The notes under the pieces: model-generated | Databases searched by the model: none | Seen by the model: the letters and a program-made list of their open reading frames with translations, nothing else | What the model was told of the DNA's origin: nothing | Position numbers and translations under genes: made by a program | Shown here: one piece after another, positions 16,225-22,517 of the stretch | How positions within the stretch are numbered: position 1 is the stretch's first letter | Layout of the letters: the number at the start of each line of letters is the position of its first letter | Source: an uncultured Alphaproteobacteria bacterium | GTDB lineage: Bacteria; Pseudomonadota; Alphaproteobacteria; CAAHEQ01; UBA3637 | Assembly (NCBI GenBank): GCA_944391565.1 | Contig: CALXUB010000004.1 | Span: forward strand, 46,180 to 110,179 | DNA: 64,000 bases | Direction: 5' to 3'

Positions 16225-18747
16225 TTAGAAAAAGCGTCCCGTTCGGCGGATAAAACGCCAATTACTCTTGACATATTCTTTTGCATGCTTGTTTTGTGCA
16301 CGCATTTTGTCATCCAGGCGAGAACGTGTTTGATGTGCATTTTCACGAATCTCATCAAAGACATCACGCCAATTATGCTGATCTTCTGGTTTGTTTTGCC
16401 GATTCGCCCGTTGTGTCGCATCTGATGCTTGCTGACGTGCGCGTGCCGCAGGATCTTGCTCCAGCATTCGGGTATAAATAGATGTCATCGGAATAGAAAC
16501 CAACGAAGCCGTAAATTGAACGGGCTTTTGAGCCAATGCCATTGTTTTTGTCATGTATTTATTATAAGCAATCGCGCGGGCTGATTTCTTGATCGCGTAT
16601 GAAGTCAATTTTCCGGTTGTGGTTATGGCTTTTTTGGTTGTTTTCCGAATCACATAATTAGCCACACTGTTTGCCACGATGACGGTTGCTCCAATAGTAT
16701 AAAGAAGGCCGGCTACTACAAAAGCAACAGTTGCCGCAAGCAATGTCAGTGGTGCCAGATACCAGGAAGAGGCTGTTGTTCCAACCATTTTCATGCCGAA
16801 TTGACCCAGGAAACGGCCACTGTTAAAGAAGACAAACTTAGCTCCATTGTTAATTCCTTTCCCGGTCAAATGAATACTTTTCTCGGTTAAGTTAGCTGTC
16901 GTATTTGCCGTTGCTTCAACACCGGTGCCGATTTTGTCTGCCGCTTTCGGAATGAAACGCCGCATGCCGCGCGAACGTGCTTCCAGCGTGTGGTACTTGC
17001 TGAGCCCGTGTCGAACACCCTCCGCATCCGTATAACCGCGTCGCTGTGCGTCTTTTCTTAATAAGGCCGCTTTATTTTTGGACGGTTCCCATGGCTCATC
17101 ATAGATTTCTTTCGTTAGCCCGATTCCGGCTCCGACAACGCCGACCGGTGCAAAGAGCGCTGCCACACCGCCGCCTTGAGACAGTCCGACTCCGGTCATC
17201 ATTTGAATCATTTTCGCAGTGGATGAAAGTAAGTAAAAACCAATCAGCAGCATTGCTATGCTGGCCAGAATCATGCGTCCTCCGCCGGCCCACCCGAAGC
17301 TTTCGCTTAGTCCTAGATAGTTCTGGGTAGCCAATAATTCAGCCAGTTTAGTCGCATTTGGTCCCATCAGTGCATAGAACATTTGAATCAGCAAAACGAG
17401 AATCAAAGAAATCATGAAAAAGTTGATTAAAGACGAAATTAGCATATCAAAAGCACGTTTTGTATACGAACGCGTCGATGGAAAAGCCGCCGTCACGATA
17501 AAGAAAGGCAATAATAACAGAACAATGCCGATTCTGAAGAACGAATCCACTAAAAAGAACGGGAAAACAGCGGATAGCAAGAAAAACGCGGCAATAATAA
17601 ACCAGGAGGCCAACCAAACGGGAATATCAGGCAATCTGATGATTGGTGTCAGACGTGTCGGGAAAGATTTAGCCCCTTGCGTTTGAGACATACACATTAA
17701 ATATTGTCCGGCAACGGTCGGTGGAACGGTAATTTGATACGTACTTTGAACAATACACAGCAAGGAATCGCGCATAGAGGTGGGAATAGCTCTGTCTTGC
17801 GCATTAGCTTGATATTGCAAAACACGAGAAACGCGTGCGTCCGTCGGTGTCGAAGATGTCGCTGTCAGATTTTGGCAATAAGTAGGTTGAGGCGGCTGTG
17901 TCCCTAAAACGGCACGATAGATTTGTACATTCACTTTCGGTGTGTTCGGATTGGGGTCTATGTTGGCCGAAATAGAACTCATGGCTTGCGTTAGACCGGC
18001 CGAAAAAGTAAAAATCGGTGTGATGAAAGTATTTAAAACATCTTTGTAAGGTGTTGCCAAAACGGCTCCTAAAAATATCAGTAATAAAATGCGTTTCAAA
18101 ACATCCGTAAAATACGAACCGATGTCACCCATGCCCCATGATAAAAACAACCGAAGTGTTCGAAAAACCAACCAAAACATGCCACCAATGGATAAAAGCA
18201 TCAAAGGCAAATGCTGTTCTTCGATCTGTTTGTAAAATGTCGTAATGACTTTATCCATGCTTTCAATGATTAAATAAACGATATCACAGGTCCAGCAGTC
18301 CTCCTGATATTCCAATAAAAGCTGACGCGGTGTCGGACAAACTTTCGAACCACGACCCAATCGTTCTTTAATCGCTTTTTGGTAATCTTCCCGAGCTTTT
18401 TCCAGGTCTTCCTGTTGTTCGCGGGTTCGGTCATTTAAGGGGATACGTTCAACTTCTTCAATAATTTGCTGCGCTTCCAAAAAGCGTTCCTGTGAGATCT
18501 GATAGCTTTGAGCCAATGCACTGCCGGCAGCCATCCATAAAAACGAAGAAAAAACAAGGCCTAATAAAAAGAGATGTCTTGTCTTTTTTAAGCTGATTGT
18601 TTTATAAAGACCAAGCCCCAGCATCAAAATGATCAAAGGCAGCGCAACAAACCAAATATAGGGTAAGTAAGACGTGCCCGGCAAAAAATAAACCAGGATC
18701 AACAGCGGAATAAGCAGAAGAGTTGTTGCAAAATGCTTTAAAGTCAT
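16225..18747 (-). CDS. Polytopic membrane protein, VirB6-like paralog 3 (840 aa) with long hydrophilic C-terminal extension
   Basis: It has many TM helices. It shares the CWTCDIVY motif and the FFLVDSFFRIGIVLLLLPFFIVTAAFP block with the two upstream paralogs. Its ~300-aa basic C-terminal tail resembles the extended VirB6 proteins of Rickettsiales rvh systems. Assignment to the VirB6 family is by architecture and context only. Confidence 0.5.
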   Translation of the reverse strand: MTLKHFATTLLLIPLLILVYFLPGTSYLPYIWFVALPLIILMLGLGLYKTISLKKTRHLFLLGLVFSSFLWMAAGSALAQSYQISQERFLEAQQIIEEVERIPLNDRTREQQEDLEKAREDYQKAIKERLGRGSKVCPTPRQLLLEYQEDCWTCDIVYLIIESMDKVITTFYKQIEEQHLPLMLLSIGGMFWLVFRTLRLFLSWGMGDIGSYFTDVLKRILLLIFLGAVLATPYKDVLNTFITPIFTFSAGLTQAMSSISANIDPNPNTPKVNVQIYRAVLGTQPPQPTYCQNLTATSSTPTDARVSRVLQYQANAQDRAIPTSMRDSLLCIVQSTYQITVPPTVAGQYLMCMSQTQGAKSFPTRLTPIIRLPDIPVWLASWFIIAAFFLLSAVFPFFLVDSFFRIGIVLLLLPFFIVTAAFPSTRSYTKRAFDMLISSLINFFMISLILVLLIQMFYALMGPNATKLAELLATQNYLGLSESFGWAGGGRMILASIAMLLIGFYLLSSTAKMIQMMTGVGLSQGGGVAALFAPVGVVGAGIGLTKEIYDEPWEPSKNKAALLRKDAQRRGYTDAEGVRHGLSKYHTLEARSRGMRRFIPKAADKIGTGVEATANTTANLTEKSIHLTGKGINNGAKFVFFNSGRFLGQFGMKMVGTTASSWYLAPLTLLAATVAFVVAGLLYTIGATVIVANSVANYVIRKTTKKAITTTGKLTSYAIKKSARAIAYNKYMTKTMALAQKPVQFTASLVSIPMTSIYTRMLEQDPAARARQQASDATQRANRQNKPEDQHNWRDVFDEIRENAHQTRSRLDDKMRAQNKHAKEYVKSNWRFIRRTGRFF

Positions 18748-18749
18748 TT

Positions 18750-21069: not shown

Positions 21070-21080
21070 GTTTTTTCCTC

Positions 21081-22517
21081 TTAAAGTCCGGCGATTAACC
21101 GTAAACATATAACAATCAAAATACTTAAGACAATCAAAGTAAATAAACAGGATATGAACAAATCCCATGCTTTTTTGGTGTATCCGATTGTTGCCGGGAA
21201 TACAGCCAACACAATATAAAGCGGGAGTAATACGGCCACAAATCCCAAACGAACCAAAATATCAATAAACTTAAACGGAACAACGATAAATAGTATCAAA
21301 TAGCCAATAATCTGTATTAGTGCGATTAAAAACATACCGATATGAGGCAGGCCTAACGGACCGGCAGTCAGTGAATGGACAAGGAAGGTTGCCGCAATTG
21401 CCATTCCCAATACAAAGTTTAAACTGGCTGTTTTGATGACGCAGGATAATCCGTCGTAAACTGTGGAAGACAAAGCTTTCGGATTACCGTTTGTGACAAA
21501 ACGACTGTCATTAGGATCTGATGTGCTGCACAGGTTAACTGAGTTTTGAGAAACGGTCACCGTCGTGCTGGAACAGCCATAGTTCACATCATCAATTGTT
21601 GTGACAGTCGGGGTGATAAAACCGGCCGTTCCCATCAACTGTGTGCTGAGTCCTGTTGCAAACGAAACAACCGGCGTGATGATTAAATCAAAAACTTGAT
21701 AAGACGGTGCCCATAATAATGCGGCACCAAACATCAAACGGAAAAAGGCTTTCAACAGGCTTGTCATGAACTCACCCACGTTTGCGCCGTGAACGACCAG
21801 GAAAAATTGCAAAACAATCCAACAAAGCCACGCGACACCGCCGACCATCAGTGCGCTGAGAAAAATATTTCGCATTTTTTCATAAAAATTTGTGGCCAAA
21901 TCATTAACGATATCAAAAGTGACATCAAATAACGGACAAAACCAACAGCCGTATGAACCGTCCTGATTATAACTGTTTAAAATACGGGAAAATAAAGGTG
22001 TTCGAATGGCCGAACCGGTTGTGAAGGTCGTAGCCCATTGAAAAGTTGTAAACGCCGAAAGTCTGGCAGCATATTCTTCTGTTAAAGCGTTCATGAAAGC
22101 ACAAAGGGCATCATTGTTGGCCGCAACTTGCTGCACAATTTGTTGTGTGTTCTGCAGCAACTGGCGATGTTGCGATTCGGAAGCTTGCAGTGTTTGTGCG
22201 GCAGTATTGCGACATGCTTCAATTTCTTGCTCTGTTCCCGAACAGCGATTGATTGCTTGTTGATAACGCTGATTAGCTAACTGCCGCGCCTGATATTGTA
22301 TCTTCATGGCGTTGTTATAACAGTTTGTGCAATGCGCATCTTCAATATAGGACTGATATGCCGAACGCCAATCTCCGCCCTGAGCTGCTTGCTGTGCTTG
22401 TTCCGTCGTGATCTCCGAGCAATCCCATAAGCAAACTTGCGCCTTCACCGGCAGAGAACAGAAAAAAAGAAAAAGCAATGAAAAAACCAGGGAAAAGGAA
22501 ATGCGCTTATTTATCAT
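21081..22517 (-). CDS. Polytopic membrane protein, VirB6-like paralog 1 (478 aa) with Cys-rich periplasmic N-domain
   Basis: It has a signal peptide (SLVFSLLFLFFCSLPVKAQ) and a ~170-aa N-domain with 8 Cys. The CWFCPLF motif and the FKFIDILVRLGFVAVLLPLYIVLAVFP block are shared with the two downstream paralogs. It is the first gene of the minus-strand operon. Confidence 0.5.
   Translation of the reverse strand: MINKRISFSLVFSLLFLFFCSLPVKAQVCLWDCSEITTEQAQQAAQGGDWRSAYQSYIEDAHCTNCYNNAMKIQYQARQLANQRYQQAINRCSGTEQEIEACRNTAAQTLQASESQHRQLLQNTQQIVQQVAANNDALCAFMNALTEEYAARLSAFTTFQWATTFTTGSAIRTPLFSRILNSYNQDGSYGCWFCPLFDVTFDIVNDLATNFYEKMRNIFLSALMVGGVAWLCWIVLQFFLVVHGANVGEFMTSLLKAFFRLMFGAALLWAPSYQVFDLIITPVVSFATGLSTQLMGTAGFITPTVTTIDDVNYGCSSTTVTVSQNSVNLCSTSDPNDSRFVTNGNPKALSSTVYDGLSCVIKTASLNFVLGMAIAATFLVHSLTAGPLGLPHIGMFLIALIQIIGYLILFIVVPFKFIDILVRLGFVAVLLPLYIVLAVFPATIGYTKKAWDLFISCLFTLIVLSILIVICLRLIAGL

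What the first reader, a model, noticed from the sequence alone, without database searches (positions are those of the whole stretch)
16225..22517. Three paralogous polytopic membrane proteins share a CW[TF]C motif and a [FY][LI][IV]D.[FL][VF]R[IL][GI] block
The three paralogs are 478, ~420 and 840 aa. Each has Cys-Trp-x-Cys (CWFCPLF, CWTCQIF, CWTCDIV) just before the first TM cluster. Each also has a strongly conserved helix pair (FKFIDILVRLGFVAVLLPLYIVLAVFP / MYLIDAFVRIIFFIILLPILLVAWVF / FFLVDSFFRIGIVLLLLPFFIVTAAFP). A CxxC pair at a membrane-periplasm interface suggests redox or metal function. I do not recall such a motif as a canonical VirB6 feature, so this may define a distinct subfamily.
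Basis: seen in the sequence. Interest (0 to 1): 0.6.

Follow-up and report, generated by a model that had tools for sequence, protein, structure and literature searches.

The report
VirB6 secretion-channel paralogs with conserved CxxC
Three neighbouring genes encode divergent copies of VirB6, the inner-membrane base of a type IV secretion machine, and all carry a near-invariant Cys-Trp-x-Cys cap on their first helix that marks a large, undescribed VirB6 subfamily found so far only in uncultured Alphaproteobacteria.

Summary
Three minus-strand ORFs (P1 478 aa, P2 about 419 aa, P3 840 aa) are true paralogs: BLASTP gives 2e-36, 5e-16 and 2e-10. All three carry CW[FT]C at the same alignment column.

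The motif is a subfamily signature. A profile search found 1,916 clusters at 50% identity. In 169 aligned members both Cys are present in 162 and Trp in 150. Five canonical VirB6 proteins lack the motif, and I found no paper or curated model that describes it.

The CxxC is predicted to be periplasmic. It caps the long helix α1, 19-25 residues before TM1. The two Cys are kept or lost together (two SWFS variants) and persist when a second, loop Cys pair is lost.

My best reading is a structural disulfide that staples the N-cap of α1. A redox, metal or inter-subunit role is not excluded.

Extras: P1 is a split gene (ORF4 is its detached C-terminal module), and P2-type copies are lipoproteins.

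Verdict: a new variant of a known kind, of moderate interest.

The parts
21081..22517 (-). P1, a VirB6-like paralog of 478 aa. It has a Sec signal peptide (1-26, ...VKAQ), a Cys-rich periplasmic N-domain and the VirB6 core. It ends right after the TrbL core helices, so it is a split gene.
21936..21947 (-). CWFC motif of P1 (residues 191-194), the N-cap of helix α1.
   Evidence: Translation. Invariant in 18 of 18 sequences, and Cys present in 162 of 169. The model helix starts at the second Cys.
21195..21275 (-). P1 conserved helix block FKFIDILVRLGFVAVLLPLYIVLAVFP (residues 415-441), part of the canonical TrbL/VirB6 core.
   Evidence: hhalign to Agrobacterium VirB6 covers P1 425-467, E=0.003.
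20023..21069 (-). ORF4, 348 aa, with its own signal peptide, one TM and a G/S/P-rich tail. It is the detached C-terminal module of the P1-type VirB6 (gene fission).
   Evidence: 23.1 bits against an HMM of the C-terminal module, versus at most 8.9 bits in 200 shuffles. BLASTP to residues 503-595 of the full-length ortholog P0024, E=6e-5. A 347-aa gene sits at the same place in L001, and an unscanned 365-aa ORF at the same place in L007. In L008-L011 the P1-type and P2-type ORFs abut, with no gene between them (ORF list for L011).
18750..20009 (-). P2, a VirB6-like paralog of 419 aa counted from M27. It is a lipoprotein (lipobox LSSC at 19926-19937) and has no Pfam hit.
   Evidence: ORF. BLASTP to P1 5e-16. 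The lipobox is conserved in the P2-type orthologs. AF2 model pLDDT 68.7, and the seven best Foldseek hits are all TrwI/VirB6.
19854..19865 (-). CWTC motif of P2 (ORF residues 75-78), 21 residues after the lipidated Cys54.
   Evidence: The model helix 50-98 starts at the Trp of the motif.
19227..19304 (-). P2 conserved helix block MYLIDAFVRIIFFIILLPILLVAWVF.
16225..18747 (-). P3, a VirB6-like paralog of 840 aa. It has three N-terminal hydrophobic segments, the VirB6 core and a roughly 300-aa basic C-terminal extension with an extra TM.
   Evidence: ORF. Pfam TrbL E=8.2e-5, 22.9 bits, residues 378-463. Hydropathy. Orthologs of 799-928 aa in L001-L011.
18286..18297 (-). CWTC motif of P3 (residues 151-154).
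17479..17559 (-). P3 conserved helix block FFLVDSFFRIGIVLLLLPFFIVTAAFP (residues 397-423).
   Evidence: it lies within the Pfam TrbL match.
15170..16111 (-). Double-HTH (Xre-type) regulator directly downstream. It is syntenic in relatives.
   Evidence: Pfam HTH_3 8e-24. The same gene follows P3 in L001. ORFs of similar length follow P3 in L007 and L011, but they were not scanned against Pfam.
15..10656 (+). Partner T4SS genes: VirB8 (15-488, cut by the window edge), VirB9 (582-2258), a giant VirB10 (2288-9655, 2455 aa) and VirB11 (9667-10656).
   Evidence: Pfam VirB8 8.5e-7, CagX 4e-12, TrbI 6e-30 plus beta-flower repeats, T2SSE 1e-20.

Best explanation
The region is a four-gene operon (P1, ORF4, P2, P3) encoding three anciently diverged VirB6/TrbL-type subunits of a chromosomal VirB/D4-like type IV secretion system. 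The host is an uncultured alphaproteobacterium.

By analogy with R388 TrwI, these proteins would form the pentameric base of the periplasmic 'stalk' in the inner membrane. That base is the platform and funnel through which pilin and substrates pass.

All three belong to a large, so far undescribed VirB6 subfamily. In it, the first long helix (α1) is preceded by an export signal plus a variable periplasmic extension, and is capped by C-W-x-C.

I infer that in the oxidising periplasm the two cysteines form an intramotif (i, i+3) disulfide. This would lock the N-cap of α1, with the Trp as a packing or anchor residue. A second disulfide (C330-C359 in P1 numbering) would pin a β-hairpin insertion of the periplasmic loop to the next helix.

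Shown: paralogy, VirB6 fold, T4SS context, motif conservation, the position of the motif on the modelled helix, predicted periplasmic side, and paired retention or loss of the cysteines.

Inferred: the disulfide itself, the pentameric assembly, and any division of labour or hetero-oligomerisation among the three paralogs.
For: Paralogy.

Fold:
- P2 model: the seven best Foldseek hits are TrwI, TM-score up to 0.61.
- Pfam TrbL is matched by 10 of 18 family members, best E=5e-8.
- The core block aligns with Agrobacterium VirB6 residues 172-214, including the essential-Trp position (PMC2653234).

Context: VirB8, VirB9, VirB10 and VirB11 are in the window.

Conservation:
- 1,916 clusters at E<=1e-3 and 699 at E<=1e-30.
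- C191 in 162/169, W192 in 150/169, C194 in 162/169.
- The three paralog types, each with CxxC, recur as an array in at least six distinct MAG lineages.

Location:
- 145 of 162 members have an odd number (1 or 3) of hydrophobic segments upstream of the motif.
- The gap from the motif to the next TM is 19-25 residues.
- The helix starts at the motif in both models.

Pairing logic:
- 26 members lack both loop Cys yet keep the CxxC.
- Two clusters have SWFS, with both Cys replaced together.
- The loop Cys are mostly lost as a pair.

P1's N-domain has eight further periplasmic Cys, which suggests an oxidising, Dsb-competent periplasm.
Against: - No coordinates were available, so the Sγ-Sγ distance within the CxxC, and its distance to C330/C359, could not be measured.
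- A CxxC at a helix N-terminus is also the classic geometry of redox-active sites.
- The near-invariance of the motif (about 96%) is stronger than is usual for a purely stabilising disulfide.
- None of the three window proteins reaches Pfam's TrbL gathering score (P3 22.9 versus 25.9 bits; P2 has no hit).
- A family profile finds no PDB sequence.
- The models rest on only 22 sequences (pLDDT 77 and 69).
- Pentamer formation and a VirB5 partner are unverified. No VirB2, B3, B4, B5 or D4 was found in the window.
Confidence: 0.55

Rival explanations
1. The CxxC is a redox-active centre. The VirB6 subunit would perform thiol-disulfide exchange in the periplasm, for example on Cys-containing pilins, effectors or other T4SS parts. 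This would be analogous in geometry to the helix-N-terminal CxxC of DsbB, VKOR or thioredoxins.
For: The CxxC sits exactly at the N-terminus of a long helix in both models, where the helix dipole lowers the Cys pKa (established knowledge). Conservation is about 96% over a family whose paralogs share only about 25% identity. The location is periplasmic. P1's neighbouring domain is Cys-rich.
Confidence: 0.12
2. The cysteines form inter-subunit disulfides: Cys-a of one protomer bonds Cys-b of its neighbour. This would give a covalently closed ring at the tip of the five α1 helices. The ring could join different paralogs into a hetero-pentamer, or link VirB6 to another T4SS protein, as VirB7-VirB9 are linked in Agrobacterium.
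For: VirB6 is a pentamer with extensive subunit contacts in R388 (PMC9259494). The two Cys are lost together. Three co-transcribed paralogs all keep the motif in every lineage examined. A conserved i/i+4 stripe (F197, F201, N205, T209) runs below the motif and suggests a packing interface. There is a precedent for inter-protein disulfides in T4SS (VirB7-VirB9, cited in PMC2653234).
Against: A Cys-x-x-Cys spacing at a helix start strongly favours the intramotif bond (established knowledge). No multimer model could be made. I found no data on α1 N-termini being adjacent in the R388 pentamer.
Confidence: 0.15
3. The CxxC binds a metal (Zn, Cu or Fe), alone or together with the loop pair C330/C359, as a four-Cys site.
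For: 124 of 169 members have all four conserved Cys. CxxC is a common metal-binding element (established knowledge).
Against: 26 members keep the CxxC without either loop Cys, including the window's own P2. The location is periplasmic, where Cys4 zinc sites are rare. No His or Asp co-conservation was seen next to the motif. It is not CxxCH: P, Q or D follows the second Cys.
Confidence: 0.06
4. The proteins are not T4SS parts but an unrelated family of polytopic transporters that happens to lie near vir genes.
For: Pfam TrbL scores are below the gathering threshold for all three, and P2 has no hit. NCBIfam gives nothing. A profile against PDB sequences gives nothing.
Against: Both models match TrwI first by structure, and the P1 model also matches DotA. 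Ten of 18 relatives hit TrbL. The canonical core block aligns with Agrobacterium VirB6. VirB8-B11 lie in the same window. One relative is named 'type IV secretion system protein' by NCBI.
Confidence: 0.02

Closest known systems
TrwI/VirB6 of plasmid R388 (PDB 7O3V, 8RT9) and Agrobacterium VirB6 (Pfam PF04610 TrbL/VirB6)
   Different: Canonical VirB6 starts directly at α1, with no signal peptide and no Cys there. Here α1 is preceded by an export signal plus a variable extension and capped by CWxC. There is also an extra loop Cys pair and a β-hairpin insertion. Sequence similarity is below Pfam's threshold. There are three paralogs instead of one, one of them a lipoprotein and one split into two genes. 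P3 has Phe at the essential-Trp position.
Rickettsiales vir homolog (rvh) T4SS with proliferated VirB6 (RvhB6a-e; Anaplasma/Ehrlichia VirB6-1..4)
   Same: Chromosomal, alphaproteobacterial. A tandem array of highly divergent VirB6 paralogs (about 75-80% divergence). Enlarged copies with flanking extensions. A separate virB8-B9-B10-B11 cluster. A split virB6 is known there too (virB6d in R. bellii OSU 85-389; PMC2653234).
   Different: Here there is no virB3-virB4 upstream of the array and no virD4 after virB11. There are three paralogs rather than four or five. GC is about 43-46%, and the neighbours are housekeeping genes such as glycogen synthase. Whether RvhB6 proteins carry the CWxC was not tested. 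The relatives found are labelled only 'Alphaproteobacteria bacterium' MAGs, one of them from human gut.
DotA of the Legionella Dot/Icm system (PDB 9NGY)
   Different: It belongs to a type IVB system. No sequence similarity was detected. No shared CxxC was tested.
Helix-N-terminal CxxC of DsbB, VKOR and thioredoxin-fold oxidoreductases
   Same: A CxxC placed at the N-terminus of a helix on the periplasmic side of a membrane protein.
   Different: The fold is different. No quinone or second catalytic pair is evident. The intervening residues are not tuned. This is a resemblance in local geometry only.

Membership tests
VirB6/TrbL (Pfam PF04610) | Sequence match to the TrbL/VirB6 profile at or above the curated threshold | tested here: inconclusive
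   P3 22.9 bits and P1 15.3 bits against a cut-off of 25.9; P2 has no hit. Ten of 18 close family members match at E<=0.01, best 5e-8, and three carry a precomputed PF04610 hit.
VirB6/TrbL (Pfam PF04610) | Conserved TM/cytoplasmic core block with the essential Trp (Agrobacterium ...GPLILVGYIFDRTRDIAAKW...) | tested here: met
   hhalign places P1 425-467 against Agrobacterium VirB6 172-214, E=0.003. Family counts: P432 in 167/169, T443 in 149, Y446 in 150, W451 in 107 (Phe in 35, including P3).
VirB6/TrbL (Pfam PF04610) | VirB6 fold: long hydrophobic helices as in TrwI of the R388 stalk | tested here: met
VirB6/TrbL (Pfam PF04610) | Encoded with other T4SS mating-channel genes | tested here: met
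   VirB8, VirB9, VirB10 (TrbI domain) and VirB11 lie at 15-10656. The arrangement around the VirB6 array is syntenic in relatives.
VirB6/TrbL (Pfam PF04610) | Forms a pentamer at the stalk base that carries VirB5 and recruits VirB2 | not testable with these tools
   Only single chains could be modelled, and no VirB2 or VirB5 was recognised in the window.
Rickettsiales rvh-type T4SS | Tandem array of three or more highly divergent, enlarged VirB6 paralogs | tested here: met
   Three paralogs at 24-28% identity, one of 840 aa. The array is conserved in L001, L005 and L007-L011.
Rickettsiales rvh-type T4SS | virB3-virB4 directly upstream of the virB6 array; virD4 after virB11 | tested here: not met
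   Upstream of P1 are divergent ORFs with no Pfam hit (22605-26232). After virB11 the next ORF is on the opposite strand. No VirB4 or VirD4 domain was found among the 34 larger ORFs scanned against Pfam; the remaining roughly 13 ORFs of at least 150 aa were not scanned.
Rickettsiales rvh-type T4SS | Host belongs to Rickettsiales; RvhB6 share the CWxC | not tested
   Relatives are labelled only 'Alphaproteobacteria bacterium' MAGs. No Rickettsiales VirB6 sequence was accessible.
Thiol-disulfide oxidoreductases (thioredoxin fold, DsbB, VKOR) | Characteristic fold around the CxxC | tested here: not met
Thiol-disulfide oxidoreductases (thioredoxin fold, DsbB, VKOR) | CxxC at the N-terminus of a helix | tested here: met
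   The helix starts at model residue 30, the second Cys, in P1, and at residue 50, the Trp, in P2.
c-type cytochrome haem-binding site | CxxCH | tested here: not met
   P, Q and D follow the second Cys in P1, P2 and P3. In the family this position is P 89, D 23, G 22.

The most novel reading that the evidence does not exclude
The invariant helix-capping CxxC is functional chemistry rather than a staple. One option is a redox-active pair that exchanges disulfides with pilin, effector or channel partners. Another is a ring of inter-protomer disulfides that covalently closes, and could gate, a VirB6 pentamer. That pentamer might be a hetero-pentamer of the lipoprotein, split and extended paralogs. 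Either would be a thiol-based control point in the T4SS stalk that has not been described.
Probability: 0.2. Interest if true: 0.7.

Novelty: new variant of a known kind. Interest (0 to 1): 0.42.

Why it matters
VirB6 is the least understood core subunit of type IV secretion. It is thought to recruit pilin through α1 and to act as the funnel or valve for substrates.

A large clade (about 1,900 clusters at 50% identity) is essentially invisible to Pfam and NCBIfam and is known only from uncultured Alphaproteobacteria, including a human-gut MAG. This clade has added an exported N-terminal extension and an almost invariant Cys-Trp-x-Cys exactly at the cap of α1.

That gives three things:
- a simple sequence signature for annotating these divergent VirB6 proteins;
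- a precise, mutable target (two Cys and one Trp) for testing how the α1 tip contributes to stalk assembly or gating;
- a second example, outside the recognised Rickettsiales, of VirB6 proliferation (three ancient paralog types, one a lipoprotein and one split into two genes). This bears on why some host-associated Alphaproteobacteria multiply this subunit.

If the motif is only a structural disulfide, the finding is a useful but ordinary subfamily feature.

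Tried and rejected
- A family profile against PDB sequences returned no hit at E<=10. Even Agrobacterium VirB6 does not find TrwI by phmmer. Sequence searches therefore cannot bridge VirB6 subfamilies, so I used fold comparison instead.
- NCBIfam gave nothing meaningful for any of the four proteins.
- The word-indexed homolog search, with P1 and with the alignment, returned only 16-19 hits and no names. The exhaustive profile search showed that the family is about 100 times larger.
- A genome scan with the broad alignment failed for lack of a conserved 7-10-mer. 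The narrower alignment worked.
- tblastn of the P1 core against 72,556 plasmids gave no match, so the family is not on sequenced plasmids.
- R388 accession BR000038 is not in the collections. The afdb50 fold library was unavailable, so no UniProt organism names could be obtained.
- Two cluster look-ups covering 20 representatives gave only two names: 'type IV secretion system protein [Alphaproteobacteria bacterium]' and 'hypothetical protein [Pseudomonadota bacterium]'.
- Literature searches for VirB6 with CXXC, cysteine or disulfide found nothing about Cys in VirB6.
- Rejected: ORF4 as a VirB2 pilin. The Pfam TrbC hit is only E=0.34, and ORF4 instead matches the VirB6 C-terminal module.
- Rejected: P1 truncation as a frameshift or assembly artefact. 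The same split occurs in L001-L003, and orthologs of 380-416 aa also end there.
- Rejected: the CWxC as a lipobox. In P1 and P3 it lies 150-190 residues from the N-terminus, and in P2 it is distinct from the real lipobox LSSC.
- Rejected: haem c. There is no His after the motif.
- Model coordinates are not exposed, so Cys-Cys distances could not be measured.

Full report
**1. What is there**

The interval 16225-22517 holds four tightly packed minus-strand genes.
- P1: 21081-22517, 478 aa.
- ORF4: 20023-21069, 348 aa from the Met that opens a signal peptide, 12 nt after the P1 stop.
- P2: 18750-20009, 419 aa from M27, 14 nt after the ORF4 stop. The mechanical ORF from GTG is 445 aa.
- P3: 16225-18747, 840 aa, 2 nt after the P2 stop.

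The three large proteins are real paralogs: P1-P3 E=2e-36 (27% identity over 406 residues), P1-P2 5e-16, P2-P3 2e-10. In the three-way alignment C-W-x-C occupies the same columns, and D419, R423, L430-L431-P432, T443 and Y446 (P1 numbering) are invariant.

The block itself is clearly homologous.

**2. What family**

Curated sequence models barely see these proteins. Pfam TrbL/VirB6 scores 22.9 bits for P3 and 15.3 for P1 against a threshold of 25.9, and P2 has no hit. NCBIfam gives nothing. A family profile finds no PDB sequence.

Membership in VirB6 nevertheless rests on four independent lines.
- (a) Ten of 18 close relatives hit Pfam TrbL, best E=5e-8.
- (b) Profile-profile comparison aligns P1 425-467 (…LLPLYIVLAVFPATIGYTKKAW…) with Agrobacterium VirB6 172-214 (…IGPLILVGYIFDRTRDIAAKW…). 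This is the canonical core that ends at the Trp reported as essential (PMC2653234). My recalled Agrobacterium sequence was verified as 100% identical to Ti-plasmid records.
- (d) The window also encodes VirB8 (cut at the window edge), VirB9, a 2,455-aa VirB10 and VirB11 at 15-10656.

The 'unrelated transporter' outcome that would have refuted the finding is therefore excluded.

**3. The CWxC motif is a subfamily hallmark**

An exhaustive profile search of 1.84 billion cluster representatives found 1,916 proteins at E<=1e-3 and 699 at E<=1e-30. Of the 164 retrieved sequences, 142 contain CWxC (108 of them CWFC). Most of the rest have C[FLIY]xC at the same place, or are fragments that start downstream of the motif.

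In a 169-sequence alignment the first Cys is present in 162, Trp in 150 and the second Cys in 162. For comparison, the most conserved core residue, P432, is present in 167.

Five canonical VirB6 proteins (Agrobacterium, A. vitis, S. meliloti, Novacetimonas, Acidiphilium) have no Cys near their N-terminus. The Pfam domain begins to match only at P1 residue 233, about 40 residues after the motif.

No paper in the library links VirB6 with a CxxC or with conserved cysteines.

The motif is not a relic of recent duplication. Three paralog types recur as an array in at least six other MAG lineages (L001/L004, L005, L007-L011), whose P1-type copies are 34-86% identical to P1:
- P1-type: CWFC, about 480-600 aa.
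- P2-type: CW[TS]C (CIAC in L007), about 400-430 aa.
- P3-type: CW[TS]C, about 800-930 aa.

The surrounding chromosome is syntenic as well.

All ten genome loci carry labels of uncultured bacteria. Nine are 'Alphaproteobacteria'; one is labelled Lactobacillales, which I take to be a binning error. One of the Alphaproteobacteria MAGs is from human gut. No homolog exists in 72,556 plasmids.

**4. Where the motif sits**

P1 has a Sec-type signal peptide (…VKAQ). P2 has a lipoprotein signal peptide with lipobox LSSC. P3 has three N-terminal hydrophobic segments, with K/R in the short loop between the second and third.

Family-wide, 134 of 162 motif-bearing members have one upstream hydrophobic segment and 11 have three. 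An odd number places the motif in the periplasm. The distance from the motif to the next hydrophobic segment is sharply fixed at 19-25 residues, with a mode of 21-23.

In both models a single 47-49-residue helix begins at the motif: at the second Cys in P1 and at the Trp in P2. Its C-terminal half is TM1. The CxxC is therefore the N-cap of α1.

Below the motif a conserved stripe runs down one face of the helix with i/i+4 spacing: F197, F201, N205, T209. In R388, α1 is one of only two VirB6 helices that enter the membrane, and it is the proposed VirB2-recruitment helix. VirB6 there forms the pentameric stalk base under VirB5 (PMC9259494; PMC12624023).

**5. How the cysteines behave**

Two further cysteines are conserved in the periplasmic loop: C330 (131/169) and C359 (138/169). 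They flank a β-hairpin insertion in the model: strands at model residues 140-145 and 159-164, with C330 at model residue 166 and C359 at 195, near the start of the next helix.

Co-occurrence:

| Pattern | Members |
|---|---|
| All four Cys present | 124 |
| CxxC kept, both loop Cys absent (includes window P2 and all P2-type proteins) | 26 |
| Both motif Cys replaced together (SWFS) | 2 clusters |
| CxxC missing (mostly N-terminally truncated fragments) | remainder |

The two motif cysteines therefore act as a unit that is independent of the loop pair, and the loop pair is gained or lost as a unit.

The simplest reading is two disulfides, C191-C194 and C330-C359, in an oxidising periplasm. P1's N-domain carries eight more Cys, which fits that picture.

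The motif is not a haem site (no His follows). A four-Cys metal site cannot be general, because P2-type proteins lack two of the four ligands.

I could not measure distances because the model coordinates are not exposed. The data also cannot separate an intramotif disulfide from an inter-protomer one, or from a redox-active pair. I give these rivals 0.15, 0.12 and 0.06 (metal).

**6. The second block**

The [FY][LI][IV]D.[FL][VF]R[IL][GI] helix pair lies within the region that Pfam's TrbL model matches (P3 378-463 = model positions 101-186). It runs straight into the canonical P…F..T…K.W block.

D419 (148/169) and R423 (132/169) are well conserved in this subfamily. The block is part of the general VirB6 core, not a new feature. 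P3, and 35 of 169 members, have Phe at the essential-Trp position.

**7. Side findings**

- P1 stops right after the core helices. ORF4 scores 23.1 bits against an HMM of the C-terminal module of full-length members, versus at most 8.9 bits for 200 shuffles. ORF4 also aligns with residues 503-595 of a full-length P1-type ortholog, E=6e-5. Lineages with a full-length P1-type gene have no ORF4. This is a gene fission in which the detached module acquired its own signal peptide, which preserves its N-out topology. A split virB6d is also recorded in Rickettsia bellii OSU 85-389 (PMC2653234).
- All P2-type proteins carry a classical lipobox, L-[ST]-[AGS]-C or C-S-C, placed 21-25 residues before the CxxC. 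They are thus lipoprotein VirB6 proteins.
- The closest known system in organisation is the Rickettsiales rvh T4SS, which has proliferated, enlarged, about 80%-divergent VirB6 copies and a separate virB8-B11 island. Here there is no virB3/virB4 upstream and no virD4 downstream, so I do not file it as rvh.

**8. Verdict**

This is a new variant of a known kind. It is a large, unannotated, uncultured-alphaproteobacterial VirB6 clade defined by an exported N-terminal extension and a CWxC cap on α1. Interest is moderate, at 0.42.

Noticed in passing
window 20023-21069 (-): ORF4 (348 aa) has a signal peptide, one TM, and a G/S/P-rich tail with PEGMKPP repeats. It is the detached C-terminal module of the P1-type VirB6: a gene fission with a newly acquired signal peptide. 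A 347-aa gene sits at the same place in L001, and an unscanned 365-aa ORF sits there in L007. There is no gene between the P1-type and P2-type ORFs in L008-L011.
   Followed up: yes
window 19926-19937 (-); L001, L005, L007-L011 P2-type ORFs: P2-type VirB6 paralogs carry a conserved lipoprotein lipobox (LSSC, LSAC, LTAC, LSGC, CSC) 21-25 residues before the CxxC. I know of no described lipoprotein VirB6.
   Followed up: partly
window 2288-9655 (+): A giant VirB10 of 2,455 aa. It has about 14 beta-flower repeats plus DUF3659 and RHS-like repeats ahead of a C-terminal TrbI domain (residues 2094-2287). Canonical VirB10 proteins are far shorter (from my own knowledge, not checked here).
   Followed up: no
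window 21948-22439 (-), P1 residues 27-190: The periplasmic N-domain of P1 has eight extra Cys, including CLWDC and CTNC pairs. These are conserved in the 73-77%-identical orthologs and partly in a 41%-identical one. No family match.
   Followed up: no
window 10705-15148 (-) and 22605-26232 (+): Seven ORFs flank the VirB6 array and its HTH regulator. They have no Pfam match, and several are very acidic, Q/E/P-rich and of low complexity. ORFs of similar lengths occupy the same positions in L001 and L011 (about 40% identity at P1). They are candidate T4SS accessory proteins or effectors.
   Followed up: partly
window 48000-56000; integrase 50502-51602 (-); methylase 59380-60774 (+): GC drops from about 0.45 to 0.35 around a tyrosine integrase gene, and an N6/N4 DNA methyltransferase lies further on. 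This is a probable integrated element. ARAGORN found no tRNA gene anywhere in the window.
   Followed up: no
L007 8187-15836: The human-gut MAG HGM16760 has four CxxC-VirB6 genes: two P1-type copies, a P2-type and a P3-type. Its P2-type copy has CIAC instead of CWxC, so the Trp is lost but both Cys are kept.
   Followed up: partly
L008 (CAZXTR010000036.1): A contig carrying the same three-paralog array belongs to a MAG labelled 'uncultured Lactobacillales bacterium'. This is most likely a binning or labelling error, because the array otherwise occurs only in Alphaproteobacteria MAGs.
   Followed up: no
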